A stretch of DNA of 64,000 nucleotides, from assembly GCA_037379345.1 (NCBI GenBank), contig CM074511.1:2976001-3040000 (forward strand), given 5' to 3'. Below the pieces are notes generated by a model that saw only the letters and a list, made by a program, of their open reading frames with translations, searched no databases and had not been told where the DNA came from. Every line of letters begins with the position of its first letter. Within the stretch, counting starts at the first letter, position 1. The position numbers and the translations under genes were made by a program. Shown piece after piece: positions 9,701-47,400 of the stretch. Source of the stretch: Perna viridis. Taxonomy: Eukaryota.

Positions 9701-10969
9701 GAAGCACTCCTGATCCTCGTTCTGCACGTTGATGATCCCCTTCTTTTTGGCGAGTGCTGATGGGGTCGGTATGAAGGAAGCCCCCTTGAGAGGCTTGAAT
9801 TGGTTGAGGTGGATCTCAAGCTTCTCAACGTGTCCGAAAGTCCATCCGCTCCCTTCCCGCATGTATTTAGCCATATTTTCCTTGATCTTCTCCATCATGA
9901 ACGCAATCTCCAGATCGAGATCTGCGGATTCGAAGAGGGTAATAAGGCCCGATCTGAAGTAGGGGGTGATGTTGGTATTTTCTCCGGTCGCGGGGTTGGT
10001 CTTTACCAGCTCTGCTAGAAGCACTAAGTGGACCTTCAATCCCTTCTTTTCGGTGAGAGCATCAGAGATGGTGGTGGAGATTGTGCTTCGACTTACCTTG
10101 AGAAACGTAGCTACGTCATGCGATTTCAAGGGTTCGATGACGACTGTGCCAAATACACCATTCAGTGCCTGACGCCTATCGGTGATCTTGATCTCCTCTT
10201 CGACTGGGGCGCTTCTGATGCTCTCTTCCACCTGCTGGAGTAGATCCTCTCTCTTGAGCCGGGAGTACCTGGTGAGCCCGCGATTCTTGGCGAGTGCTTT
10301 CAGCTGCTTCTTGCTGAAGACTTCCCTACGGGTAAATTTACGGGCGGTTTTCTCCTCGATGAGCTTCACCAAGGCCTCCTTGTTCTTCCTACTGAATCCC
10401 CTCAGACCCTCATCCTTAGCTATTTGACGGAGGGTCTTCATGGTCTCTTTGACCACCATCTTCCCCTCAACTGGGATGACCTCATCCTCCTGCTGGCGTG
10501 GTTGCTTGCTATGCATCCAGCAGCGACCACCCATCCCGGGCTTGCTCTTGCAGAACTGCCCCTTCTTCCTTTTCAGTGGATAATCGCAGGTGGTCTTCTG
10601 CTCCCCATCTGATTGATGCTCAAATCGCGGCTTGGCGGACTGCGCACCGCAATTTTGACACATATGGGTATGCTCATCCATCTGCGCCATGCTAGGGTTA
10701 TCGCAGCACTGCTGCTGCTTTTGGGGGATTGGGGTTGGAATGGTATCCTCCAAATCTTCTTGATTCTTCAGAAATAAATCCTGTAAGCGATCCATATTTT
10801 CACTATTGGATGCCGTCCCTTTATTTATTTCAATCTGTGACGCACTTCTCTTAAAGGTGTCCTTATTCACATCCCCACTATCCTCTGGGGCGACCTGACT
10901 TATGCTCTGTGCGAAAGACATAATTCTTGTATTTACCCTATGCTCAATAGGGATGCCGTCCGTTTGCAT
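6789..10969 (-). pseudogene. polB: Protein-primed family B DNA polymerase (pPolB2 type with endonuclease VII insert); in-frame stop and frameshift
   Basis: Motifs YADFEC, CHICG...VRDHDHLTGKYRGAAHNQCNL (EndoVII), HNLSGYDAH, RKGVYPYDY, YLDANNLYG (just after TAA 8027-8029), KLMNNSVFGK, FTDTDS and KAKGV. After a 1-bp deletion near 6963 the tail reads KIALSAKDELRHILPDGISTLAHGHY. Likely start is ATG 10795. Confidence 0.95.
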
Positions 10970-11030
10970 TTGACCGTCGGGGTTGGGGATTTTATGCAGG
11001 ATTTCTGCATGTGGGGCAGAATTGTCATTT

Positions 11031-11046
11031 TCACACTACTAGCGTG
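11031..11046. other. Right terminus of Polinton (ACTACT-3') and candidate 6-bp target-site duplication AGCGTG
   Basis: TCACACTACT|AGCGTG coincides with the GC-to-AT transition. The partner end is not in the window. Confidence 0.7.
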
Positions 11047-13938: not shown

Positions 13939-14923
13939 TTAAATGCCTATGTTCTGAGTAACTGAAAGTTTTTCACCAAGGTTTTCATGTACATATCCAT
14001 CTTTGGCTGTGTCGGACGCCCATCTACCGTGTTTTTTAAACAGTCTGTCACTAATTTCAGCCGTGGCTGCTGCTGTCGTACCCCCTGCTCGAAATGAATG
14101 AAGACCAAATCTAGACTTATCCAGCCCTAAAGACTGTAATGCATTTAAGAACAGTTCTCTTGCTCTAGTGCATGATAAAAGTCAATTTCCTCTTAAACTA
14201 TACAATTGAGAACTTTTACGAAAAGTTAAAGATCTAAAAATAAATTCGTCTGCCATACTTATGCTAGCTTTACATATATACCTTTCCAACAGTTTTACCG
14301 GACAAGTTATAGTATTTGTTCTAGATAAAAGTACAGATGAACCTTCTCGTTTTTGATCAGTCTTACTTTTTTCAATATATAACGAAGCATGAGTAGGATG
14401 GAACTGGATATCTGATTTTCTTATATTGACTAGTTCTGAGAAACGTAGAAAACCTGCGTAACAAACAAGACACATACACGCTAACCTTAAATCGCTCAAG
14501 TTACTAAGATCATGAGCATATCTAAAAAATTTTTGTAATATATCAACAGTTATATGTTTTTTTTTATGTATTATACTATGACCTACAATTCTGCTTGATC
14601 CGTCTTTTACAGAATTGCATAAGAATGAATCACATGGATTTTTATGATTTGATATTTTGTGCACCCAGCTTATGGAATAGAAAAGCTTCTACTTTAGACG
14701 TAGAATTAACATTTTTGCTCAAATAATTAAGATACAAAGCTACAATAAGCTGGGTAGCAGGTAAGGGGTTTAATCCATTTGAACTACACCATTTACAAAA
14801 ACTATCAAATGCGTCCCTATATTTCTTTCTAGTGTTGTCAGCCCTTGACTTCATACAAAATTCTGGAATTTCTTCTGCCAAAAGTCTCAGGTTAGAATTC
14901 AAAACATCAGCACCCCTATCCAT
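13939..14923 (-). pseudogene. Tyrosine recombinase of the DIRS element
   Basis: SRADNTRKKY, GFLRFSEL, EKSKTDQ, GLHSFRAGG and KHGRWASDTAKDGY across several frameshifts. Confidence 0.85.
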
Positions 14924-15099
14924 CGTGTGTTGTTGAAGATGTCTGAAAATCGTAAAAATATAATATAAATTTTATTTATATTGCAATTTTGAAAAAAAAA
15001 TAATGTAAAACATCAAATTCTGACCATGCATTTTTTCAATGCCTCGTCATAATCACACTACAAAACAGACAGTGGAAAACAGTTATCCACTTCTTATTA

Positions 15100-17000
15100 G
15101 GCTTTCAACTTTATAGCCAATATCTTTGATGTAAAATTTTCTGTCCCGAATATGACATTTTTATTGTTTCCTTGAAATTAAAATATTTTGACCAGTGTTA
15201 AATTCGAAAACTTCTTCTACAAAAAAACTTATTTCATATCTCTTCCAAAAATCATTGTCCAAAATGATGAAGGCCAATTCGGTACAATTAATGTTCCCGA
15301 TGCTTTACTTGTGATCAAATACCTGATGATTTTAGGAATAAGGTGTATAGGGGGCACTAACCAGTTATTATCTCTACTCCAATTTTGAGTAAAAGCATTT
15401 ACTGCTTCACTATCAGGATTCAAAACTTCAGAAGTCTGTGTTTTAGTATTCATGAAATTTGCGAATCTATCTATAGAGTAAGGGCCCCACATTTGATTCA
15501 AAAATAAGAAAAAACTCCCAGGTTGTTTGCCAATCATCGATATCAAATTTGAAATAAAATCTGCTTTGCAATTTTTTGTGATCTGTGCACCCAAACAGGA
15601 ATTAAACTAATCTCCTCTGTAGAGCAAACCTTAAAAAATATCCATTGCCAAGTGTTGTAAAAACACTCTTGTACTACCTTTGTTTATAATTTTCACACAA
15701 TTTTGACTATCTGTATTCCATTTCACAAATTTGTTTCTTAACTCTTTCTTAAACGAATGCAACGCCATTTGGATGGCCCCGAGTTCTCGCCAGGTGGAAC
15801 TCGTTTCTTTCTCGGTTTAATCCCACATGATGAAAAACTTTCTCATTCACTTCGACGGTGTAAGTAGCCGCTGCAACATCGCTAGCATCAGAGAATATTT
15901 TTAAAGTTTCTTTCATAGTTTCATTCATTAAAACTTTTTATCCAGTATAGACAATATTTTTAACCAAAATGTTAGCTTAGAATGTACATTTTCTATGAAA
16001 TCAAACATTAACTTTGAATCCCAAAATGTTCTCTTCTCTATAACTAAATATAGAAATCTTGTCATTAAAGCTGATATATTGCCTAATACAAGTGACATAG
16101 AAATAATTCTCCCTGTAAATTGAGCTAATTCTCGGGCCGTTACCCGTGGGAAGATTTAAAATAAGCTTAAAAAATTCAACTGTATTAACAATTCTACTGT
16201 TGGTAATTGAAGAGAATGCTTTAAAATTCCAAATCAAGCCAAGCCATTCAATACTTTGAACAGGTTCAAAATAGATTTTTCTTAATTTATGAAAGAACCA
16301 GCTTGTTCTAAGGATAATTTAACAAATCTGGACACACTTTCACACTCATTTAGACTGTTGGACACACCTAAACCGTCATCTATGTAGAGAACAATATTTA
16401 CCCCATTGAGTCGCCAATACTTAACTAGCGGTCTCAAACATTTCGTGAAAATAAAAGGGGCTGACGATAGGCCAAAAGCTAGGACGCTATAGCAATAAAA
16501 CTTATCGTTCCACTAAAAACCCAAATATGTCTGCTGTTGTTTACAAATATCAATATGAAAATATCCAGATTTTAAGTCAAATTTAAACATAAAACATTCT
16601 TTTGAAAAGTATTGTAAAGGTACTCTCCAATCTTCAAATTTTACTTTAGATTTTTTGACATAAAAGTTCAATTCACTTAAAGCTAGAATTAACCTTTTTA
16701 ACCTGACTTTTGGATAGCAGCGCTGAAAGGATTAACCACAAAAGGCTGAAATGGAAGTTCATTAATACAACAATTATCTAATAGTCCGGAAATTGTCTGA
16801 GTTACGGAAATCGCTATTTTGTAAGGCTGATCTGTTATTTTCAAAACACATACGTGGAGGTATATCACAAAAAGGTATTAAATAGCCATATTGTAAAATA
16901 TCTAGAATGAATTTGCTTGCACCTGTATGCTTCCAAACATCAATATTTCTAGAAAGTCTAGATTTAATTCCTTTATGATTAGAGGACATATCAATTTTAT
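15100..17000 (-). pseudogene. RT / RNase H / adenine-methyltransferase-like ORF of the DIRS element
   Basis: FDLKSGYFH, VLAFGLSSAPFIFTKCLRPLV, LYIDDG, FSDAS, SSTWRELGAI, then IDRFA...FTQNWSRDNNWLVPP. Confidence 0.85.
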
Positions 17001-17065
17001 CAAAATATTTCACATGTTCAAAAAGAACACCCATATCGGATTGGTCTGAATTCAAGTCAGAATAC

Positions 17066-17825
17066 TTATCTTTTACACCAATTTTGTGGGTTTGCTGCTG
17101 GCTTGTTCTTGGGGCAGTTAATCTTCCAATGCCCGTAGTTTCGGCAGTCAAAACACTGGTCATAAGGGGTCGCCTCCCGGCGACGGTTCCTCGGAAAGGG
17201 CTGATGATTACAGTTGTACTGAGGAATGTCATCAGTAGGAGGCCTAGAAACGGTAGCTGTAGGTCTGTTATACGGTTTGGAACGATTCTTCTTGTCCTTA
17301 ATTGAACGCATAGCCCTGCTTTCAGCTTGTCGCAAACGTTTCTCATCCTCTGAGTTTGATGCTAAGTCGTCGCTTTCGTATTCTCTTACTGTTTTCCAAC
17401 CCGCGGGTGACTTATCAGCTATGCGAATCAGTTTATTTCTCTAATTAATTTTTCAGAAACAATCCCGAAATGATATTGGAAGCAGCGAAATTTCCCGTCT
17501 GAATATGCCTTAACAGCTTCTGTAATTCGGCGAGTATATCCGAGTTAAAGTTGAACTGGATTTGATTTTCCTCTCCCTTGAATCTTACAGAAACTTCTTT
17601 CTTTAACTTTTACGCCAACGAGTCGTTGCCCAGTAATAGATCGTTCCTAAGAACTGAAAACTTACTGTCAAAATCAGAAGTCAGCAACTGAAACGATTCA
17701 TCATTCTGTGAGATAACAGCTTGTTGTACCTGTGCAGAGTGAGTTAGATTGTGTTGTGCGGTATCAGCTGGGTTTTCTAGTAGTAAGCTATCTTCATCCT
17801 CTATTTGTTCGCGACGTTCGGACAT
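17066..17825 (-). pseudogene. gag-like ORF of the DIRS element
   Basis: IRIADKSPAGWKTVREYESDDLASNSEDEKRLRQAE and a CCHC knuckle CFDCRNYGHWKINC. Confidence 0.8.
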
Positions 17826-21151: not shown

Positions 21152-21735
21152 TTACAAACAAGAACACGTTTTTATCGTCATATTTGGTACCAATTTCACT
21201 TGTGTGCTATGATTTCTATCCATGTACAAAATTTTCAATGGACTTAATTCGGCTGGTACACAACATGCTCTTGGTACTGTTTCATCGCTGTTTCTATTCA
21301 GATGATAATAATTCTTTACCATGGAATAGTTGGTCGAATTGTAATATGGATGATTGATTATAGCGGGGCATAAGCCTTCACAGATATTGGCTGCGTACGA
21401 TGATGGAATGACTATAAATGAAAGACCAATTTCACGAAAAGTAACATTCCAAGGCTTTACACCACAGTTGGCGGTATTAAAGATGCCCGCCTCAATCTCC
21501 GGCAATATGTCGGAACGTGACCTCTTTTGCCTACCCGATTCTTCTATCACACTTTCCAACATTGATACCTCACTCTGTGTAAAGCTTTTGAAGACAGCCA
21601 TTATCGTCTTAATCCTGAAGGGTTTTCTACTTAACTCTGATAAGTCAACCATAAACATTTCAGTTTTGGAATTCTCCCTGGTACACCTTGTAATGTCGGA
21701 AACAAATCCAAAAGGCGTGTACATTGTTCTTATTT
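21152..21735 (-). CDS. TGF-beta superfamily ligand, last exon (prodomain end, RQKR furin site, 7-cysteine mature domain)
   Basis: Acceptor TTTTTTTATAG at 21736-21737 (phase 1). Reads RQKR then C...CEGLC...CCVP...CSCL*, a cystine-knot pattern. Confidence 0.92.
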
Positions 21736-23984
21736 CTATAAAAAAAAATGCATTTTTCATGTTAGAATATATTACATTTGTATATTTAAGTATTTCATGG
21801 TTTTTCTGTCAGTTGCGGATCCAGACATTGGTCAGCTGGGAGAGATTTCAGATTGTTTTCTTAAACCTTTAACTTTTAACAAGGACAGAACAAATAATTC
21901 AGGCCAGGGAGCCTTAACGTAACTAATTGCCGAGTTTTTTAGGCGAAATATGTGCAAATAAAGATGTGTACTAAAATATCCATTTTTCCAATAAAACTGG
22001 TTTAGAACGTCGCCACCGCTCTGAATCTGCTACTGCTTAATTCAAAAGACGATGTTCGTGCGAGACTCCTTATTTAGGGAATGGAACCGATCTTGTGAGC
22101 TATAATAATTATGCAAATCATGCGCCGACGTTACTCAAGACTCAGAATGTCTAGTAGAATTATTAATCTTGGCTTGGGTCTCGTAAGGCAAACTTCTGTC
22201 AAGGTACCGAAATTGATAGGCTTGATGTAAAATTGGTGCTTCATTTTCCAATTCACATTCTGATCCAAGCTATTGTTATTTTGTATACGTGATGATACTG
22301 CTGATATATTACATTACAATACTTAAGTCGCTATATAGTTTCATTAGTTTTCAGCCATCCATCTACCTTCAATAATCCCTTAATTAAAACATTTATTAAG
22401 TAGAGAAATTGTATCGAAACAAGTCCTTCTGCTTACAAAACACGCCTTACTATTTACAAAACATTAAGTGATGTAACATATGATGCGGAATAATCAATTG
22501 ATACATATATGGCACACTGGGTGTTAATTCACCCATAGTTATACAAGATAAACCAAATTAGCTTAGTTTTATGGTGATAATAATTATTTTTAAGAGATGC
22601 AAATGGGGGGCTAAAGCCCTCTTAGCTCAATCCGCCGCTGTCTATATAATTGCAAAAACAAAGACAAATTAGGTTACATTGTACTTGCCTCAATGATAAA
22701 GCAAAAGTGATAAGGCAAATGGCTGTGGAGACAGAGGAGGTAGGGTACAAGAAGTATGTTATAGTATATACATTCAATACTATTAATGATCAAATCAACA
22801 GAAGTAGAAAGGATGTCAATTACTGGTATATATCAAATAAATGTCATTAAAATCTTATTATATTAAAGATGAAATCGTCATAGTCAATCTCACCCATATC
22901 TTTTAAATAATTAGAAAGCAATAGTCCATCATGAGACAGATCACAGAACACTCACCATAGTGGGACTTTTGTAGACCTATACATGTTGATAGATATAAAT
23001 CCTACCAAAAATAAATGCAGCTTTGTCATAGAAACCAGGGTCTAAAAGTAAACCACAAGGTCATTTCTAAGTATTCGATGTTGAAACATTTTGCTTCCAT
23101 ACAAGTAACACAATTAAAAACTTTTTGCATATACAAATGGCAGCAAGAGAAAACCAAGATATTCCATTTTACTAAATTTTACCCTTTAAAAATCGCTTAA
23201 TAGATCTCAAACAGTTTGATTAATTTGTCTTATATATACTATAGGTGAACAAAAATGAAAAATTAAATCGAGGGGAAAATAATGTCTTATTTACGTTAAC
23301 AAATATGTGTGACCTCAAAACATGAAAAATATGCAATACTCAGATTTTAAAATTATGCAATGAAGTGGTTTAGTTTAATTGTCATGTCTCCAAATGTAAT
23401 AAACAAATTACAATACATACATATATATTATGATATTACATTACATATTATGTAAGTCAAACTCTCAAACTAGAATTTTTTTCTTTAAATCAAATAATTT
23501 AGAAAACATGCTCCATATTCTTCAGATTTCCAATCAAAAGCATCTTTTATGGATACTGAATACTTCGGAAAGTCTTTAAAAAAGGCATATGAGTATGGGT
23601 AACTCATATAAAAATCCCATTATAAGTGATTATTTTGTTATGCATACATCCATTTAACTCTTTAAACGATAAAGAAGGATCTCAAAATTAACGTATTTCC
23701 TTCTTAAAAGATAATCTTTTACCATATTTTCTTTTCCGGACACAAGAATTTCAATTTACATGGTATTTCAAATATGACACAGTATTCTTCTAACAAAAAA
23801 CTCATGTGAGTTACTGTTCTAAAAATGATCAAAATTAAAAAAACAAAACAATGTTATGTATAACCAGAATACGCCAATATTACACACATGTGATATGTTT
23901 AATATAGTGATAAGTAATCATCATTATTATATAGAGAGCAGTAATGTACCAAATTTTCCTTGTGTAAACATTTTTCCGATAAGA

Positions 23985-31054: not shown

Positions 31055-32370
31055 CAAGGAAAGCATGGACCAGGTGCACCGATAATGTAAGCGTCCTCTG
31101 CTTTTCTAGAGACACCCAGCGAGTTGCTCATAAAACAGTAATCAAGGGAACCAAGGTTATAGCGATAATCAAAAGAATCTAATCCAGGGACAAAGACCAG
31201 ACATGGAAAACAGACATACGCAACAAAGAATATAAAGTAACTGAAATCATACATACAAAGTAACAAAAGCAAATGAGCAACTCGGACTCCACTAAAAACT
31301 GGGAGCATGGACCAGGTGCACTGTTAGGGTAAGCGTCCTCTGCTTTTCTGGAAACACCGGCCGAGTTGCTCATACAAAGTCAAGTCCGTGGTAGACAAAC
31401 GAGGAAAGGAAAACTATGACCCATTGAATAAATCAGTTTTCATGGTGCAGATGGATACACTATAACGATCCATGAGTTCATGATGACGACCATAAAAATT
31501 CTGTATACTCGACGTCACATACAGCACATCTTCGATTTGAGCTCTATTTTTTAAACTGTCGGGACTTACCGCTAGAGTTGTCTCTCTTTTATTTAATCGG
31601 AAGATAGTTCGCATATATGCATGACGTGAGAGTTTCAATGAGACGTTTATTGGCTGAAATTGTGCGTAACAAATCCTTACGGGAAAATCCTATACTAATA
31701 TCTGCCATGCTGGTTTCTACGGGACGATTTGTTTACAAACGAAGTTCGTAAATTCCCGTCGAACTCCAGTGACAATCGTCTGCTAAATCGACTTCTCGGT
31801 GTTGTACGATGTTTGCGTAGAATAAATCCGAGATATTGGTTTTTGGACAAACCATTTAAACGTAAACAACATCTCCTAGCAACCCGATCACTGTAAACAT
31901 GGCCGACTTTTGACAATGTAAATATTGGGACCGAGAATTAAAATTTCACCGGAATTTAACGATTCCATGTTCAGGGAGAAGCCGTTTGGCTAAACGAATG
32001 AGCAAGTTATTTAAGACAATTTAAACGACGGTAGGTGTCAATAAAGTCGTAGAAAATATATTTATTCAAATTTTAACAGTATCTTGTTTATGTGACGCCG
32101 AGTATAGTGATGACTTCAATCTTGTAGCAGCATAACCCTGTTCCAGAAGCCTATTTGTTAGAGTTCTAGCGCGATACAAAAAGTCTGTGTAGTTTCGGCA
32201 AGCTCTGATATAACGTATGAGTTGTGATATGAACACTCCATACACATATGCTGAAGGGATGTTGCCACAGATGAAAGCAAAGTTGACAATTTTGAATGAA
32301 AAGTCATCACGTTTGTCGAAAAGATTGGTCAATAGTTTTCCCTTACCATTAACTTCTAAGTGTAGGTCAA
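31055..32370 (-). mobile_element. Penelope-like (Naiad-type) 3' fragment with partial tandem UTR, interrupted by a MITE
   Basis: RT thumb (FDKRDDFSFKIVNF...) at 32107-32370 continues at 31503 downward. The UTR is partly repeated at 31055-31130. Confidence 0.8.
31506..32104. mobile_element. Tc1/mariner-type MITE, ~600 bp
   Basis: TIRs TACTCGACGTCACATA / TATGTGACGCCGAGTA, with TA duplicated at 31504-05 and 32105-06. Splits the Penelope sequence CTGTA|GTGATGAC. Confidence 0.8.
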
Positions 32371-32759
32371 GAAATAACATGATTTCCCGCCATATTTCTG
32401 GTTCCCTGCTAATTTATTACTTTATGTGGTAAGACTCTTATTAAGTACCAGTTGTAGCATTTTCATTCGGAACTTCTGATTTTGTGTTTTACTAAAGGTA
32501 AAGAGCAGAAATATGGCGGGAACATTTCAAAATATCCATAGAAACAAGATGGCGGATAAACAATACATTCAATGCAAAATTCTCGTAGGAAAAATAAATT
32601 TTGAATTTTTTTCAATCTCGGAGGTAAGAACGAAAAATAATTGTAAGGGAATCGTAGTACAGAACGACATGAATAAAATGGCAAGTTTTTGAAAGGAACC
32701 GTCGAGTAATTACAAAAATAAACGCAAAAAACCGCAAACAATCTGAGGTGACTTGGACT

Positions 32760-35700
32760 ATAGGACAGACACAACAAGTAACTGTAGGCCAGGACCTATG
32801 CTTAGTAGTATGCCAGCAACAGCGCCACAGGCTAGACCACCATTACAGTACACCCTGACTCCACAACCCACTTATCCAGTATCAGGAGTGAACAATTTAG
32901 CCAACCTAGGACCAGGAAGACCAAGATAACAAACTGCACAGCCCATATTCACTTATACACAACAAAAGTACGACCCAAAACTGCATGCCGAGACCGCAGC
33001 ATGTAGGCTCGTTCATCGCAGATCCAACAACCAATCCAGCTCCGCCGAAGCTCAGAAGTCAACCAGCCATGTTGAAATCGTTGAAATATGACGGGACAGA
33101 AAAGTGTGATTACTATCATCGTTCTTACTTAAATTTGAGATTTTCATAGAAGCTGCAGAATAGACAGACCCAAGAGGCGGAACCGGTTATGATGGTGCCT
33201 GACAGGACCAGCTAGTCAGTATGGCACAAATATATTGCGACGTAATAAGAACATCACCTATGTAGAAAAAATGGGACAACGTTTCAATTATGCCAACGAA
33301 ACTGACACTCTACAAGTAAAATTTCACAATATGCTCGACAGAGTCCAGGCGAAGGTACGTCAGAGTGGGTAGACCGCCTCGCGGCACTTGTAGACAAAGC
33401 TTTCCGTGATGTACCAGAACAACATGTACACCAGCAGGTCATTAAAAAGTTTCTTCAGGCGTTGAAGGACGAAGATTCGGGTAAAACCGCGTCCATGTTG
33501 AAACCAAAAACAATAGAAGAAACTTGTCAACCAGTTAAATTGAGGTCAACACATTGACACTTCTATCTATGGGACAAATAGATGGCATGACCAACACGAC
33601 GATGAACTATCTTGTCATGCCATTACCTATGGTACCCATGAAGAGGCGACGAAGATTTCATTGGATGAATAGATTGCCGCATTAATAAACATCATGCAGA
33701 CATTGCAAGAAAGAACGCAATCAGCCTTTCCAGAACTACGTCAACAGGTGGACAAGTTAGAGCACGGAGACAGGGTCAAGGGATCATCTCAACCACCAAA
33801 AGAACGGGACACATCTTCCCAGTCCTATAACTGCGATGGCTATGGGCACATAGTGAGATGGTGTAGGAAACCCATCCGTGACAGTAGACAAAAACGGGAA
33901 GGACAAGCACCCCCTAGATCACATGGACCTCCAAAAGTTCACGAAAAGCCTTTAAACATGTAAAGGTCGGTCAAAGGGACGTAAGTCTGACCCGAAAAGA
34001 ATATTTTTGCCCAACTTTAAAAACTGACCAAAGTTGTAGTATAGAAAGGGCGATTCCAAAACCCGAAATGAACTCAGAGGAATTGGAAGTTAAGTATACC
34101 GTGAGTGAACCAGAACAGCAAGGGGACATAATAACAATGTGGTCTTAGGTCACAGAGATCCCAAAAGCAAGAAGAAAAAGGAAAAGAAAAAAACTCAGAA
34201 AGATGCCAGCTTAATGTCCTTGGATAAAAATAGTATAGCGCAACCCAGTGATGGTTTCTTATTTGATACATCAAACGACATCATTGTGGAAAACATCAAC
34301 GTACTGGAACACAAAACAGTCACCAAAGACGATCCATTTGATCCACAAAATGCCGAACTTTGTGCATTGTTATTACCATCTGCTGAATCAGACAACGAAA
34401 AAGAGGTGGTACTGATGAAAAAGAGGTGGTACTGATGAAAGATAACACTCAACTAACCATAGCGAAGGATTTACTTGTAGTTCAACTGAACGATGACGTA
34501 ATACCTGACTCCACACATAAGACCGGGAAAGTCGTAGACACAGCACAAGAGGGCAACACTGATCCAAGACTAAAGATAGTCAAAGGTATTGGCAGAGCGT
34601 TCACGATTCTGAAAACATATGTTGCATCAATAATAAGAATACCAGTGAAATGTAACCAACGCCCAATCGTAGCAGTAATCGACACACCGGCCAAAGTAGC
34701 TATTATTTCAGATTGAAAGTTTAATGCTTTGAAAGAGAGAAACCTGTCATATTGAGGAACACCCTTATGTATGTAGCAGGCGGACGTATGTAGATGGACA
34801 CAATCATAGTTGGTCCACTACAGTAGAAGATTGAACCCAAGCTGTATCTAGCAGAAGTATATGTTTCTCCTGACTGACAGTATTCTGATGAACTAGTATT
34901 ATGGTGCAGAGTACAAGATTCCATCAGTTCCATAGCAAAGAGGACTGTCGTTCCAGCAAATTCAGTGGTACACGTTGAGGGAAAGCTAGATTCGGATCCA
35001 GATACATACATCGTAGAATCAACACAACACACCAAAACGCCACTGATGATCCAAAGATGTTATGACAGGAAACCTATCCATATGAATTATGAATAATACG
35101 GACAATTCTTATACCATCAGGAGAAATGCGGTAATTGGACATGCAAGCGGTGCTTCGAGCATCATTGGAAGACTATACTGACATTTTGACATTTTTTCCA
35201 TATTTCCAAAGATGATTTTGATTTTGGCAAATCGAGCAAATGTGGAGTCTCACCGCTACCTTAGAAGGGTCTAAACCCAGTTACTAGTCTGTATCCTCCA
35301 AACCATACCATGGTCCTGATTCATTGGAGATACCGGGTGGCAATGCTGCTACATCTAACACCAGAAGAACGCATTGTGTACATTAACTTCGGACTAGAAT
35401 TTATGACGACACCTACCAACTTTATACCACCAGCTGTTAAATGGAGCGAAGGAGAGACTTTACCTGCTAGGAGCCTTCTAGCGCCGTGACCTCCAAGAAT
35501 CCATCGCCTCAGACAAAGAAAGACCGGATGCAGAACAGACTGTATTTATAAGGCAACAGCTGTATATCCTAGCGTTGAAGGGTAACACCCCTGACATTAG
35601 TGGTCTGTTCTTCGTAGACCTTAAACAACTACAGTGATTGAACCAGTAGACGATAATAGATGGGAGGCATTTGATGTGTATGACTCCCACCTTCATCTTG

Positions 35701-37050
35701 ATAAGAACAGCAAAAGACTGTTAGAAAACCTGGCATTGGAAATGGAAGATTGGTTGAACGAGCCACGGAACGTCCACCCACACAACCGGATAACGTGGTT
35801 GGTGGTGCTTCAATTTATTGTGACCCGGAGATGTTTCCAATATCCGTGCCCATCCAGGATAAATGGAAGATTGCTGAAGGTGTTCGTCCAAAAAAGAAGT
35901 CCATATCATCACGGACGCACAGACGGAAGAGTTCATTGAGCAGATTGATTCATTGAGTTCATTGGTTCAGAGAGGGTTGCTGCAGTCGGAGAGTTGGGAA
36001 TGGACAGGACTATCAGCGACATATACAGGGAAGGTAAACTTAAATTCCTGAAGGAGACAGCACCTTACATATCCATACAGTTAGCTACTCTACACGGTCG
36101 TGTTGAAGCTGTGTGTGGACCACTTTCGGGCGCACAGAAATTTATACTACATTGCTTTACCAGTACACCAGTTATTCAGAAAGGCTATTTCACTTTGAAA
36201 ACAATTACTTCGGCTTCACGTACTTGGTAAATACATGTTTCTATATCCGACAGCAAGCTTTGAGGGAAACACGTTTTAACCGATTTCTGGTGGAAACGGA
36301 TGCACCCTATATGGTACCATCAGGGATCAGTATCAACAATCGTCCCATCTATCTGGTAGAGACGCTACGGAAGATGGCAGAGGCTCAAAGAATGGAGCAG
36401 GTCTGCAGGATTACAACCATCAACGCCACAGTCTGGTTCTCTGTTGTGTAAGCTCCTGTGGAAGTAGTAAGGGACAGAGATTTTAGTTTTAAAACATTTG
36501 AAGATAATAAGAAGTAACAGGGCGGCATTTAGTTCGTTGTGATGAAGATATTGATGGAAAAATGAATACTATGAATATTGGATTTTATGAACGTTTATTT
36601 TTTTTTTTATTAATTCATGATAGAAATTGATAAGACAACAATTTCTTGTAATGTCAGTACATTGCTCAGTTTTATGAATTTTATCATCTATAAATGGGTT
36701 GAAAGAGAAAGAAAATACCTTAGAGAGACAGCACTTTGACAGAATCCACTCGAAGTTAATTACCAACATGCCTATCCAGTGCCAAGACGAATAAACGCTC
36801 TTCCTTGCGTAAGAGGGAGGAGAGTGTAGTGGATTCCACGGCATACAAGCCGTTTGTTATAATAATCATGACCTACCAGGAACGTCCGATACTTTCGGGC
36901 ACATTCGTTTTAGTTAAACATCAACACGATTGACGACCCGAAGTAGAGAAAGGAGAGGGAAAAGGAAGGCAACACGTGGCAGAAGAGCAGACGAAATAGA
37001 AGACGATATATCTAGTTGTAGGCGATTGATCATTGAGCTATTCTTTTGGG
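32760..37050 (+). mobile_element. Degenerate Gypsy LTR retrotransposon (gag, protease, TatD, PPT, start of 3' LTR)
   Basis: gag (KYDG...RQSPGE...EWVDRL), a decayed knuckle (YNCDGYGHIVRWC), slippery TTTAAAC at 33951-33957, protease AVIDTPAKVAIIS, and PPT AAGAGGGAGGAGAG at 36811-36824 followed by TGTAGTGG. Confidence 0.7.
35660..36451 (+). pseudogene. tatD: TatD-family metal-dependent DNase, frameshifted
   Basis: Ordered motifs DSHLHLD, EGVRPK, AVGELGMD, LHGR, LHCFT, YFGFT and LVETDAPY across four short ORFs. Confidence 0.8.
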
Positions 37051-38744
37051 TGAGTTTTCCTCTAGGATTGTGGTCACTTGTGACCTGTTACGGCCCATTA
37101 AACCATAAGCAGTGACTACCAATTTTATTTTCTTGTGTGTCTCAGCCAGGGATCAAACCCATGAACTGCTACGCTTGTGCAAGTATGATAAAAACAAATG
37201 CGAGAAAAAAGGTAAATATTGGCATACATTGAGTTGTGCAAGAATTACCACAACATGCCTTGGACTTAATTCATGTATACATCAAACTGGGCATTATGCT
37301 ACACCCTACTCATACATGCATATAAAAATTGAATCTCAATGTTAACAACCAAACTAAAATAATTTGATTTGTTTATAATCTGCCAATAAAACAAGAAGAC
37401 ATTGAAAAACATTGGCCTCCTTATACATTATTTGTATAAGAAGTCATACAATGTAGTAGAAGTTTACAGAATGTTCACTTAATGTAGTCGTATTAATAGT
37501 AAACATGTATATCAATGTGATGCAGTAAAGTGTACAAAACATGGAACAAATGGCCCATATTGCACTGGAAACTCTGGGTATTTGTGTCCAAGACAGCTTA
37601 TCAGTACAATATGGATTTATACAGTATTTTCATATTAAAAACTAAAAAGTAGCATTCATTAAAGGCTGCAATATGTTTTTTTTCACTGTGGATGCTTCAA
37701 AGTGAAATTATTTGCATAGATAATTGTTTGGTCTCAATATTTCTGGTTTTAAAAGAACCATGTGAAATGCACCTATGAAATGCAAACTCAAAAAAAAAAG
37801 AGAGATGTATCACTGATAATGGAGGTTTACAAATGTAGTTGCCCAGAACTTACATGTTCCTGAGAAGAGTCATTCATTCCTCTTAAAAAAACCCATTGAT
37901 GGCAGAAAGCTTTTATCACGATGGGGCAACTAGCATTACAGATGTTGCAATGTAGTTGTTGGCAAGTACAGTATGCAGACAAACTCAGTAACCTATAACC
38001 AGTCCATGTATAGCACAATCAATCTAATGAGAGTAATTACAACTCACGGGAGAACAAGAACAAAACTGAATGGACCCTTATCTTAGTGTCATAGGAAGAT
38101 GATGAAAACCAAGGAAAATGAAGAATCAAGTGGGATTCTTTGTGAACTTGATGCTAGTGAAGCATAATACACTGTAAATTATGTAACTAAAAATTGATTA
38201 CTGTGAATTTGTGTGAGTTGACTAGTAAGAAAAATGAAATCACGATGAAAACAAAATTTAAAAAAAAATGATACGTGTGTATTTATCTAAACTTGCAAAA
38301 CCGGCTTTAAAAATGGAAATTTACAATGTGAACACATCCACAACAGGCAGTATTGAGGATAAAATAGGTCTGTTTTATTATCCCCCCTTTTGAAACATAA
38401 GTATAAATGTATATTGATCATGCAGTGTGTCGGTCCATTGGCTACTCCTCAAAAAACTACAAAATGGAATTCAGTGAAGTTTCCATATATACTTCGTCAT
38501 ATTTGAGTATTTCATTTAGCATTTCCACCAATAAGTATAATTTCCGACGTTTCGATAGTATAGTAGAAAATTGTTGTATTGCCGTTACTAGTGAAATGTA
38601 GATTTTGAGCGAGAATATTTTCCCTTTCTAGCCTACATCTGACTGGCCAACACTCCAGTTTCAGTAAAAATATAGGAGATATTTTTGTCTGTTTAAATTT
38701 TATTATTATGATTATAAATTTTTCAATAGTAATTCATAGATATG

Positions 38745-44438: not shown

Positions 44439-47400
44439 TGTGCTGTTACATACCTAGTATTTGTCGTTACTTTCTGCTCTGGACCTTTTTTCTTCAATAT
44501 TATGGATGCTTTTTTTACTTTTGGAGCTCTTGAAATTTAGGAAAAACTGTAGGTCCCCACAGACTTTTTTACCTTCCTCTGGAGAGTTTGTGATGAATAA
44601 AGGATTACAAAAGTTTATAAGGCTTGAGGCATTACAGTAAAAATAACCCGCAGAAGACTTTCAGGAATTATGGCTTACTCCGTGGACCCTGGAGAAACTG
44701 AAAAGAGACTTAGAACATTGAGTGAAAAGGGGAAACCAATATACCAAGAACGAGTTGATAAAGAATTCAGAACAATCGCTGGAATAAAAAAGTAATATAG
44801 AAGCAACGTTAGACTTTATAGAACTTTTCAAGGACAGTTCATACAAATTAAATGAAACCAGAGACCTATTAATAGAATCTATGAACAAATTTCATGGCAC
44901 TACGATTGATTTCAAGGAATATTTAGACAATCAAAATACAATTGAGAGTATTCAGGAAGGCACTGTTGTAGACAATTTGTACCAAGAAATAGAGAACAAA
45001 ATCAAGACAAGACTTGTCTGATCGACCAGTTTACTACACCCACACAGATAACAGAGGAAAAACCTAAAACTGAACAAATAAGTGACAAAGACAGCCATAA
45101 AAGTTATAAAAGCAGTAAAAGCCGTTCAAGTCATTGTTCAAAGAGTAGACATGGAAGTCAAAGTTGGCATAGCTCATCATATTATTCACATTCTAGTAGC
45201 TTCTGGAAAAGAAAGCAAAGCTTGAGGTTGCCAAAATTAGACTTGAAATGGTGGAAAGGGAAAAACAGATAAAACAAAGGCTCTAGAGGAAAGAACTTTA
45301 CAAGACGCTCAATTGCAAAAACAGAGGTTTTAATTCACATCCACTTTAAATGTGCTCAAAACAGAAGAGGGAAATGATGGAAGCAGAGCTATCAATAATT
45401 GAAGTTCTTGAAGAGGAAAATTTAAGTGATGGTGATAAAAGAAAAAAAATTAGATATCCCGGAAATAAGTTCTTCAGGCAAAGTAGAGAAATATGTGTCA
45501 CAATATAGCCTTCAGAGTTCAATCGAAGAAACTTTCAACACTCAAGATGTAAATCCCGAGAAAAAAGACTGGTTTTCAAGTAAATAATTATAAAAATTCA
45601 GTGAAACAAGATGTAAATCCCGAGAAAAAAGATTCTGGTTTTAAAAGTTTGGATCCAAATGTTGAGGAATTCATTCCAAGAAGGGTGTAATTGGAAGTGA
45701 ATAATAATGTCAGTGCCAAAACAACCGACAAGTATACATCTGTAAGTACGAACAATGAAGCTGGAAAAAATTCTACCGTAAGTGATTTGACAAAGTGTAT
45801 TATGAAAAAGGACCTGTTGTTGTCTAGATTGACACAATTTAATGATAGACCTGAGCAATATTTTAGTTGGAAATGTAGCTTCAAGAATATCACAAGGGAA
45901 CTTGAAACAACTAGTACAGAGGAATTAGAGACGGACAAGTTCTATGAACTTTCTGATCTATTATCAGAGATACTTTCAGTAAAGGAGAATCCTCAATATA
46001 TTATGGTTTTAAGTATAAAAAAATGGTAATGTATCCGCCTTTCTCAGTGTTTGTGGAATTTATGCATAGCATTGCCATTCGATTGAATGATCCAAGCTTT
46101 CAGATTCTAACAAATGACTCTCGATATGACCGCCTGAATGTCAAGAAAGAGAAGAGAGAGCGTATAAAATTCAATAACCCAGCAAAGACATATAGTCCCC
46201 GAGTGACAAAACCGAAATAGATCATTTTAATCCAAAGAAGCTTACATGCCCAATTCATGAAGCAGGAAAACACAAATTAGCAGATTGTCGAGTATTCTTA
46301 GGAAAATCCTTCGAAGACAAAAGGGAGTTCATCAAGAAACATGGAATTTGTTTCAAATGCTTGAATGAGATACATTTAGCAAAACATTGCAAAGAAAACA
46401 TCAGATGTGAGAAGTGTCGTAGTGAAAATCATAGTACACCATTTTATTTGGAACGTAAACAATCCGACACAATTCATGGCGGGAAACATGATAAAACCCA
46501 AGTAGAGACAAATTGCACTCAGATTTGTGGCGACGTATGGAATGAAAAACCATTTAAAGGAAAATCATGTGCAAAAACTATCTTGGTAAAGATATACCCT
46601 ATAGGACTTGTGCAACCATCGATGATCAGAGTAATAGATCGCTAGCTCGTAGTGAACTCTTTGCCTACTTTGATGATAAATCTGATTGCATAAGTTATAC
46701 ATTGATGTCATGTGCAGGAAAAAACAACTTGTACTGGACGACTTGCAAATGGATACATTCTCCAGTCATTAGATGGTGATATACAATTAAATTGCCCTAG
46801 ATTATTTTAGTGTAATGAGATTCAAAACTCGAAACACGAAATTGCGACACCTGCTGTTGCAAGACAATACGCCCATTTACAGGATATAAAACAATTTATC
46901 CCAGGGATAGATTCAAATTCAGATGTGTTACTTCTGATAGGAAGAGACATGATGCCCGCTCATCATGTCATGGACCAGAGAATCGGTAAGAACAATGAAC
47001 CGTACGGTCAGAAACTAAGATTAGGATGGACTATTATAGGAAAAACCTGCTTAGGATTTGTGCATACCTCGGATACAAAAACTGTCAATAAAATTGCAAT
47101 ATTGGCAAACGGACGTGAATCACATTTAGAACCATGTGAATATGGTTTTAAGATAAAGGACACTGTAGAACAAGACTTGTATAGTCAAATATTTTAACGT
47201 ACTCCCGAAGACCACACACCAGGGCTATCTTAGGAAGATAGAGAATTTATTTCAACTACGGATAATGAATTCACAAAGGCAGAAAGTGGTAAGCTAAGTG
47301 CACCACTACCTTTCCGGAAAAATCGACAAACTTTAACAAATAACTATACTCAAGTAATGCAAAGAGCTGAAAGTCTAGCACAGAATCTCAAGAGAGACAA

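What the first reader, a model, noticed from the sequence alone, without database searches (positions are those of the whole stretch)
33070..36900. Gypsy retrotransposon carrying a TatD nuclease in the env-like position
Seen: gag-frameshift-protease, no recognisable RT or integrase, then an intronless TatD-family sequence on the same strand with the main motifs in order, ending ~360 bp before a PPT and TG LTR start. Known: TatD proteins are TIM-barrel 3'-5' exonucleases/AP endonucleases, and some act on RNA:DNA hybrids. They are not a standard LTR-element domain. Inference: a Gypsy lineage that captured TatD as an accessory gene (cDNA processing, R-loop removal or evasion of nucleic-acid sensing). 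It may be poorly described.
Basis: partly seen in the sequence, partly recalled or inferred. Interest (0 to 1): 0.75.

Follow-up and report, generated by a model that had tools for sequence, protein, structure and literature searches.

The report
Gypsy retrotransposons carrying a TatD nuclease
This is a dead, internally deleted copy of a widespread family of marine-invertebrate jumping genes whose third gene is a nuclease most like the cell's own RNA-cutting enzyme TATDN2, kept intact across many diverged relatives, so the element appears to carry its own nucleic-acid clean-up tool.

Summary
Confirmed. The window holds a dead Gypsy relic: gag, slippery site, protease, a deletion of about 4.5 kb (RT, RNase H, integrase, start of ORF3), a frameshifted TatD gene, PPT and a lone 3' LTR (36825-37121). 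Contigs from two other studies carry the same deletion.

Relatives show gag-pol-ORF3(TatD)-PPT-LTR. Integrase or its PHD finger lies directly upstream of ORF3 in 18 of 30 loci examined, and none showed a host-gene setting; 21 of the 30 come from one assembly. 121 of 136 homologous domains keep all six metal-site residues. ORF3 co-diverges with integrase (Mantel rho 0.61). TATDN2 is the nearest cellular group. ORF3 also has a conserved zinc-finger/helical domain with no fold match, and splice signals point to an env-like spliced message.

Most likely role (inferred, about 0.45): an RNA-directed clean-up or counter-defence nuclease. Ten paper searches found no description; enzyme ORF3s are known from rotifer elements. 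This scan noted the same layout earlier in a sea urchin (e1-7881919).

The parts
32735..33059 (+). Low-complexity remnant, probably the N-terminal part of gag; cut on the left by a high-copy repeat. 5' LTR, PBS and the gag helix-hairpin-helix start are missing.
   Evidence: Single-copy contigs begin at 32735-32736 and depth jumps upstream; Q/P/T-rich reading; no match to the L002 gag N-terminus here. Assignment to gag is inference.
33060..33960 (+). gag capsid region and zinc-knuckle remnant, broken
   Evidence: blastn 66% and tblastn E 1e-31 to L002 gag; weak zf-CCHC hit E 0.098; L002 and L003 gag carry Retrotrans_gag, PNMA, zf-CCHC
33951..33957 (+). TTTAAAC heptamer at the gag/pol overlap, probable -1 frameshift site
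   Evidence: Same heptamer near the gag end in 7 of 10 related elements scanned; its role as slippery site is recalled knowledge
33961..35163 (+). pol N-terminal spacer, aspartic protease and post-protease region, broken
   Evidence: 34474-35163 aligns with L002 pol residues 193-461 (E 8e-36); that L002 region hits gag-asp_proteas
35164..35227 (+). Junction of an internal deletion of about 4.5 kb that removed RT, RNase H, integrase, PHD finger and the first ~250 codons of ORF3 including its zinc finger
   Evidence: pol match ends at 35163 and ORF3 match starts at 35228; single contigs from two studies span the junction (X2 32735-36631, X5 34638-37343)
35228..35486 (+). ORF3: C-terminal half of the conserved helical domain that follows the C2H2 finger
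   Evidence: 67-74% identity to P0001 residues 218-306
35488..35654 (+). ORF3 linker remnant
   Evidence: 44% to P0001 residues 342-380
35655..36451 (+). ORF3 TatD nuclease domain, pseudogene; HxH, GExG, HCF and ETD motifs readable in different frames
   Evidence: PF01026 E 1.5e-10; separate pieces 45-71% identical to L002 ORF3
36811..36824 (+). Polypurine tract
   Evidence: same G-rich tract 301-673 nt after the ORF3 stop in 15 of 22 related loci with at least 360 nt downstream
36825..37121 (+). 3' LTR, TG...CA, 297 nt, with a splice-donor-like GGGTGAGT at 37048; no PBS behind it
   Evidence: Start from the PPT; end inferred from related LTRs of 243-342 nt that end in CA before a PBS; donor motif

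Best explanation
The window holds a dead, internally deleted copy of a Gypsy lineage whose intact members read LTR-PBS-gag(HhH, capsid, knuckle)-frameshift-pol(PR-RT-RNase H-IN-PHD)-ORF3-PPT-LTR. SHOWN: this order; ORF3 = disordered N-terminus + C2H2 finger/helical domain + class II (HxH) TatD barrel; conserved active site; inheritance with pol. STRONGLY INFERRED: one old capture of a TATDN2-type nuclease domain, added to a zinc-finger ORF3, and expression from a spliced subgenomic RNA (donor near the LTR end, acceptor just before the ORF3 start codon), so the protein is made apart from Gag-Pol. INFERRED: the protein works in the nucleus, where the finger domain binds the element's nucleic acid and the barrel degrades the RNA strand of RNA:DNA hybrids or hairpin RNA (R-loops on element copies, reverse-transcription leftovers). 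This would keep the element transcribed and remove triggers of silencing or sensing. Odds: architecture and capture 0.95; active nuclease under selection 0.85; RNA-directed clean-up or counter-defence as the function about 0.45.
For: Order in relatives. L144 has flank-LTR-PBS-gag-pol-ORF3-PPT-LTR with ends 99% alike over 94 nt. 7 of 8 near-complete elements have gag, pol and ORF3 open, one of them with pol split only by the contig ends; L144 has one stop in ORF3. Six metal-site residues kept in 121 of 136 domains although the 13 elements compared share only 38% median TatD identity. The residues matching TATDN2 E593, E705, D707 (needed for R-loop RNA cleavage, PMC10711561) are kept in 129, 134 and 131 of 136. 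dN/dS 0.18 for the TatD domain of L001 vs L002. Integrase and TatD distances correlate, rho 0.61, P 0.0002, 13 elements. Tree: ORF3 clades A and B join TATDN2 against prokaryotic TatD, SH-aLRT 94. Profile scores: 11 TATDN2-type rows 152-226 bits, E. coli YcfH 140, 96 prokaryotic loci median 94 (max 135), TATDN3 63, TATDN1 59. Splice donor in 8 of 13 LTR ends (shuffles mean 0.6, max 4); acceptor before the first ATG in 11 of 17 ORFs vs 280 of 2643 other ATGs. Basic clusters before the barrel in 43 of 58 long ORF3s, no control run. Pol keeps its own RNase H domain, so ORF3 does not replace it.
Against: No activity, substrate, transcript or protein was observed. The window copy has no RNA reads over ORF3 in two RNA-seq runs of which 19% and 24% were read. 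TATDN1 and TATDN3 are DNases (PMC10085689), and substrate cannot be read from the motifs. The dN/dS rests on 3 non-synonymous and 5 synonymous changes; other pairs were saturated. Only 5 of 11 splits are shared between the integrase and TatD trees. The tree is a quick LG+G4 run without TATDN1 or TATDN3 sequences, and the TATDN2 join is not starred. The splice motifs were chosen after looking at the sequences. 21 of 30 context loci come from one assembly, and most are collapsed repeats without target-site duplications. 15 of 136 domains have lost at least one metal ligand.
Confidence: 0.55

Rival explanations
1. ORF3 is a DNA-side enzyme: a 3'-5' exonuclease or AP endonuclease that trims or repairs the element's cDNA, or processes integration intermediates, helping long (9-13 kb) elements copy faithfully.
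For: Human TATDN1, TATDN3 and the three E. coli paralogues have AP-endonuclease activity, and the human pair 3' exonuclease activity, on DNA (PMC10085689). Elements are long. Gag has a helix-hairpin-helix domain.
Against: The nearest cellular group is TATDN2, which cut RNA and not the DNA strands of R-loops. ORF3 is a separate frame with its own splice signals, not part of Gag-Pol, so access to the particle is not obvious.
Confidence: 0.22
2. ORF3 is mainly a zinc-finger regulator of element transcription or chromatin. The nuclease barrel is a secondary nucleic-acid-binding module, dispensable in some branches.
For: Neighbouring Gypsy lineages in the same assembly have zinc-finger, disorder-rich ORF3s with no TatD. 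The C2H2 ligands are kept in 71 of 73 rows covering them. 15 of 136 barrels have lost metal ligands, some several.
Against: 121 of 136 keep the full site at low overall identity, which a mere binding module would not need. The TatD-linked finger domain shows no clear similarity to the other ORF3 fingers (best E 0.007 in 14 sequences).
Confidence: 0.13
3. ORF3 serves spread or conflict at the level of the cell, as an env substitute: it degrades extracellular or rival nucleic acid, or kills cells that lose the element.
For: It occupies the env slot, and true env genes sit in that slot in other elements of the same assembly (Baculo_F hit). Parasite TatDs digest extracellular traps (PMC10085689 introduction).
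Against: Only 1 of 78 ORF3s has a hydrophobic segment of 1.9 or more, against 2.6 and 2.8 for two env controls. No antidote gene was seen.
Confidence: 0.06
4. The TatD sequence is a host retrocopy or passenger, or a domesticated host gene, lying next to retroelement debris by chance.
For: This copy is dead and single at 82% likeness in the two DNA runs laid. Public databases name some homologues TATDN2-like or uncharacterised host genes.
Against: Fixed position after integrase in 18 of 30 loci and PPT-LTR behind it; co-divergence with integrase; its own N-terminal domain, absent from every named host TATDN2 row; many copies per genome.
Confidence: 0.04

Closest known systems
Juno and Vesta LTR retrotransposons of bdelloid rotifers with a DEDDy 3'-5' exonuclease or GDSL esterase ORF3 (Rodriguez et al. 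2017, PMC5408684; abstract, section 3.3 and Discussion read)
   Same: Gypsy-type element with an enzymatic, non-envelope ORF3 after pol; intact catalytic residues; a 3'-5' nuclease; function untested
   Different: Different fold (TatD TIM barrel vs RNase D-like DEDDy). Fused to a conserved finger/helical domain. Found across molluscs and an echinoderm by database names, in over 100 clusters at 50% identity, not in one class. Signs of purifying selection, whereas the rotifer ORFs showed no significant departure from neutrality within the genome.
Host TATDN2 (class II TatD; PMC10711561 abstract and one results section; PMC10085689 passages)
   Same: HxH class II site, catalytic Glu/Glu/Asp, CDP motif before the barrel core, long disordered N-terminus, nearest cellular group in tree and profile
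   Different: The element's gene is a single open frame, multi-copy and inside an LTR element, and carries a C2H2/helical domain not detected in any named TATDN2 row; it forms its own long-branched clades
env-carrying Ty3/Gypsy elements (errantiviruses; PMC13524379, term passages only)
   Same: Third ORF between integrase and PPT, probably expressed by splicing (splicing of env is recalled knowledge)
   Different: No transmembrane segment or fusion-protein domain; soluble enzyme
Mollusc Gypsy clades MolGy1-16, C-clade, CsRN1 (Thomas-Bulle et al. 2018, PMC6238403; term passages only)
   Same: Probably the same pool of elements, classified there by RT/RNase H
   Different: That text does not mention TatD, PHD or ORF3; which named clade this is could not be tested without reference sequences

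Membership tests
Ty3/Gypsy LTR retrotransposon (the family) | pol order protease-RT-RNase H-integrase after gag | tested here: met
   L002, L003, L144-L146, L151, L154, L156
Ty3/Gypsy LTR retrotransposon (the family) | paired LTRs with PBS and PPT | tested here: met
   L144 flank-LTR-PBS ... PPT-LTR, 99% over 94 nt; L145 ends 97% over 216 nt; others are collapsed circles
Ty3/Gypsy LTR retrotransposon (the family) | target-site duplication | not testable with these tools
   No contig held both host flanks
Autonomous element (this window copy) | RT, integrase, 5' LTR and open frames | tested here: not met
   RT, RNase H, integrase absent; no second LTR in the window; frames broken
TatD nucleases (PF01026) | TIM-barrel fold and profile match | tested here: met
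   Pfam; model of P0001 matches TatD structures best, E 9e-15
TatD class II (TATDN2/TATDN3) | N-terminal HxH motif (PMC10085689) | tested here: met
   H412 in 133 and H414 in 129 of 136
TatD class I (TATDN1) | (G/A)xN motif (PMC10085689) | tested here: not met
   HxH instead; TATDN1 scores 59 bits
TATDN2 clade | groups with TATDN2 in a tree of all TatD clades | tested here: inconclusive
   Joins TATDN2 against 32 prokaryotic rows, SH-aLRT 94, as sister and not nested; no TATDN1 or TATDN3 rows available; profile scores favour TATDN2
TATDN2 clade | RNase activity on hairpins and R-loops | not testable with these tools
   Needs an assay
Errantivirus (env-carrying Gypsy) | ORF3 is a membrane fusion glycoprotein | tested here: not met
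   1 of 78 ORF3s with a hydrophobic segment of 1.9 or more; env controls 2.6 and 2.8; Pfam shows TatD in 52 of 52 long homologues and no env family
Rotifer Juno/Vesta DEDDy-ORF3 elements | DEDDy exonuclease ORF3 | tested here: not met
   ORF3 is TatD by Pfam and fold
Named mollusc Gypsy clade (MolGy etc.) | RT/RNase H tree position with reference elements | not testable with these tools
   Reference sequences not held

The most novel reading that the evidence does not exclude
An old Gypsy lineage spanning molluscs and echinoderms turned the host R-loop RNase TATDN2 into a dedicated counter-defence enzyme. A zinc-finger/helical domain of undescribed fold aims it at element transcripts or small-RNA-targeted nascent RNA, so it would be an LTR-encoded anti-silencing nuclease in animals. 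Independent captures of 3'-5' RNases into the same slot (DEDDy in rotifers) would then mark a general, unrecognised arms race over retroelement RNA.
Probability: 0.25. Interest if true: 0.85.

Novelty: new variant of a known kind. Interest (0 to 1): 0.63.

Why it matters
Accessory genes of LTR elements other than env are rare and none of the enzymatic ones has a shown function (PMC5408684, Discussion). This lineage offers many diverged, intact ORF3s with a defined active site and a host counterpart of known biochemistry, so the question 'what do non-env third genes do for retrotransposons' becomes directly testable in vitro. It adds a conserved ~150-residue domain with a confident model and no match among solved folds. 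It also means that many bivalve and sea-urchin gene models named TATDN2-like or uncharacterised, and TatD calls in some bacterial MAGs, are probably retrotransposon genes.

Tried and rejected
No whole genome is held for the window. IMG/VR scans with P0001, A1 and A4 found no relative. The GTDB scan returned one family contig and 79 ordinary prokaryotic TatD loci among the 80 kept. Rfam found nothing at 32000-38000. The run search listed no RNA holder; this blank is not used as evidence. The ESM Atlas gave only generic TatD clusters and hits under 0.9 for the finger domain. The structure search of the finger/helical model gave best Z 3.2 among 48,161 chains; a weak match does not prove a new fold. 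dS was saturated for window vs L002 and L004 vs L027, so dN/dS could not be computed. Assembly artefact rejected: contigs of two studies span the deletion. Bacterial origin of the MAG contigs rejected: they carry complete Gypsy elements. In the RT tree of 47 rows the TatD label needs 5 changes, but the four unlabelled rows inside clade A end within 65 nt of the pol end, so they are uninformative; two rows of the sister branch (L160, L161) have 832 and 1064 nt after pol without an ORF3 hit, also too short to decide. Three clade B contigs (L107-L109) gave no upstream pol match. Literature: searches (plus 42 for TatD biochemistry) listed no paper on TatD in a retrotransposon; I saw listings only, except where stated. 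'TatD' has 0 occurrences in PMC13524379, PMC6238403 and PMC10294476. The Kojima 2019 review was not held. Repbase entry notes and the supplements of these papers were not seen and could mention the domain.
Full report
1. What is in the window. The stretch lies in an AT-rich, repeat-dense animal genome. The host is probably a bivalve; this is inference from the named relatives and is not established. On the + strand, 33060-33870 matches the gag of related locus L002, and 34474-35163 matches its pol N-terminus and protease region. A TTTAAAC heptamer at 33951 recurs at the gag end in 7 of 10 relatives scanned; reading it as a -1 frameshift site is recalled knowledge. Pfam finds TatD at 36107-36448 (E 1.5e-10). 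Pieces from 35228 to 36445 match an intact 678-residue protein, P0001, at 41-74% with six frame changes. A purine tract at 36811-36824 is followed by TGTAG; the pattern occurs 4 times in 128 kb of both strands. The LTR probably ends at 37121. No second LTR, RT or integrase belonging to this element was found.

2. The deletion is real and the copy is dead. The pol match stops at 35163 and the ORF3 match starts at 35228, so about 4.5 kb of L002-equivalent sequence is missing. One contig of run X2 spans 32735-36631 with 6 substitutions, and one of run X5, from another study, spans 34638-37343. Two RNA-seq runs of the same species label, 19% and 24% read, gave no reads over ORF3. A second element with gag and protease joined to TatD pieces without RT or integrase was seen in another assembly (L159).

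3. The family. P0001 retrieved 46 further proteins in one search and 153 clusters at 50% identity with E up to 1e-30 in another. Named hits are from Lytechinus, Pecten, Mizuhopecten and Crassostrea. One 90% cluster holds 9 Pecten maximus gene models on 8 different scaffold lengths; I did not see their DNA context. The metagenome scan gave 26 loci, 9 of the family and 17 distant, apparently prokaryotic TatDs. A bacterial MAG contaminated with animal repeats (G001) held 16 clade A and 4 clade B loci. Of 30 family loci examined, 18 have integrase or its PHD finger directly upstream of ORF3, one has gag and protease upstream, one has LTR and gag downstream, one has an RT scrap beside an assembly gap, and 9 are contigs too short upstream. 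None showed introns or host genes around ORF3. A G-rich PPT plus TGT follows the stop by 301-673 nt in 15 of 22 loci with at least 360 nt downstream; three more show variants by eye. L144 reads flank-LTR-PBS-gag-pol-ORF3-PPT-LTR. Seven of 8 near-complete elements have all three frames open. Limits: 21 of the 30 loci are from one assembly, and most are collapsed repeats.

4. The protein. ORF3 has a disordered N-terminus, a ~150-residue domain and a C-terminal TatD barrel (pLDDT over 90 in both domains). The middle domain was detected in 100 of 112 proteins with room for it. It begins with a C2H2 finger kept in 71 of 73 rows covering it. Its model is confident (mean pLDDT 89.5) and has no clear match among 48,161 solved chains (best Z 3.2), which does not prove a new fold. 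The barrel matches solved TatDs. All six metal-site residues are kept in 121 of 136 full domains, a set that includes some near-duplicates; 15 have lost one or more. The HxH motif places it in class II with TATDN2 and TATDN3 (PMC10085689, passages).

5. Origin. With the 650-position family profile, 11 TATDN2-type rows from mammals, ticks, an ostracod, a nematode and a sea slug score 152-226 bits. E. coli YcfH scores 140, human TATDN3 63, TATDN1 59, and 96 prokaryotic loci a median of 94. In a quick tree of 98 chosen rows, clade A (32 rows, SH-aLRT 99) is sister to a second ORF3 clade B (16 rows, 85), and both join TATDN2 against prokaryotes (94, not starred). No named TATDN2 row has the finger/helical domain. 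A clade B gene is also ORF3 of an intact Gypsy element (L151). In an RT tree of 47 rows, clade A elements form one branch (99) and L151 lies in the sister branch (98 for both). Integrase and TatD distances correlate over 13 clade A elements (rho 0.61, P 0.0002), with 5 of 11 splits shared in the 14-element trees; median identity is 64% for integrase and 38% for TatD. More distant Gypsy elements of the same assembly have zinc-finger ORF3s without TatD, or env. The simplest history is one capture of a TATDN2-type barrel onto a zinc-finger ORF3, then inheritance with pol. This is inference.

6. Expression route. A GGTRAG donor motif lies in the last 130 nt of 8 of 13 LTRs, including the window's at 37048 (shuffles mean 0.6, maximum 4 in 2000; antisense 1). 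A pyrimidine-rich YAG lies within 18 nt before the first ATG in 11 of 17 ORF3 frames, against 280 of 2643 other ATGs. The splice consensus is recalled knowledge and the rules were set after seeing the sequences. The reading is a spliced subgenomic RNA, as for env genes. No transcript was observed.

7. How it most likely works. Human TATDN2 degrades hairpin RNA and the RNA strand of R-loops, needs E593 and E705, and spares the DNA strands (PMC10711561, abstract and one results section). The matching residues are kept in 129 and 134 of 136 family domains. Pol has its own RNase H domain. ORF3 lacks membrane segments (1 of 78 at 1.9 or more; env controls 2.6 and 2.8) and often has basic clusters (43 of 58, no control). 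I therefore favour a nuclear, finger-targeted RNase that clears RNA:DNA hybrids or structured element RNA, helping transcription and removing triggers of silencing or sensing (about 0.45 for this function). Rivals: DNA trimming or repair of cDNA (0.22), a finger regulator with a secondary barrel (0.13), an env substitute (0.06), a passenger or host gene (0.04). Selection evidence beyond residue conservation is thin: dN/dS 0.18 from 3 and 5 changes.

8. Relation to what is known. Enzyme-coding third ORFs are known in rotifer Gypsy-type elements, as DEDDy exonucleases and GDSL esterases of untested function (PMC5408684, abstract, section 3.3, Discussion). TatD in that slot did not appear in searches or 98, and the word is absent from three surveys of metazoan or mollusc elements. 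Subscription papers, Repbase notes and supplements were not seen. It also pointed me to the rotifer comparison, which I had already reached through the reference list.

9. Verdict. The observation and the capture reading hold. The locus itself is a fossil, but it marks a large, old lineage with a conserved captured nuclease, a probable spliced message and an unassigned domain. It is a new variant of a known kind. Interest 0.63.

Noticed in passing
window 280-11035: GC-rich (51-55%) Polinton/Maverick- or adintovirus-like element: protein-primed DNA polymerase B, integrase with a phospholipase A2-like domain, double jelly-roll capsid, several frames broken. The family name is recalled.
   Followed up: partly
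L151 7518-9035; proteins P0052, P0186-P0230: A second, shorter (~480 aa) clade of finger-TatD ORF3 with a Cys-rich insert in the barrel; the one long contig is an intact Gypsy element without the PHD finger.
   Followed up: partly
L170, L172, L173, L178, L179, L185, L191, L193, L194, L195 (contigs of G001): Neighbouring Gypsy lineages carry other non-env ORF3s that start with zinc fingers and run into long disordered tails; L195's ends in a BTB/POZ domain (E 7e-13). The ORF3 slot looks like a wider pool of finger proteins.
   Followed up: partly
L002, L003, L007, L146, L147, L151 gag starts: Gag begins with a helix-hairpin-helix domain (HHH_3), and clade A integrases end in a PHD finger.
   Followed up: partly
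L159 (G001 C1280): Another element with gag and protease followed by TatD pieces, PPT, LTR and PBS but no RT or integrase: the same kind of deletion as in the window.
   Followed up: partly
   Followed up: partly
proteins P0225, P0148: Database proteins joining this TatD to a NADAR-family domain (PF08719) or to a sulfatase; may be gene-calling chimeras.
   Followed up: no
window 14182-17440 (-), 46196-50388 (+), 56630-57148 (-), 31133-32430: Fragments of a tyrosine-recombinase retroelement, a BEL/Pao-like LTR element, a LINE RT and a very high-copy RT-derived repeat that abuts the finding. Family names are recalled.
   Followed up: no
window 21152-21808 (-): Host TGF-beta family exon (Pfam E 9e-24).
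   Followed up: no
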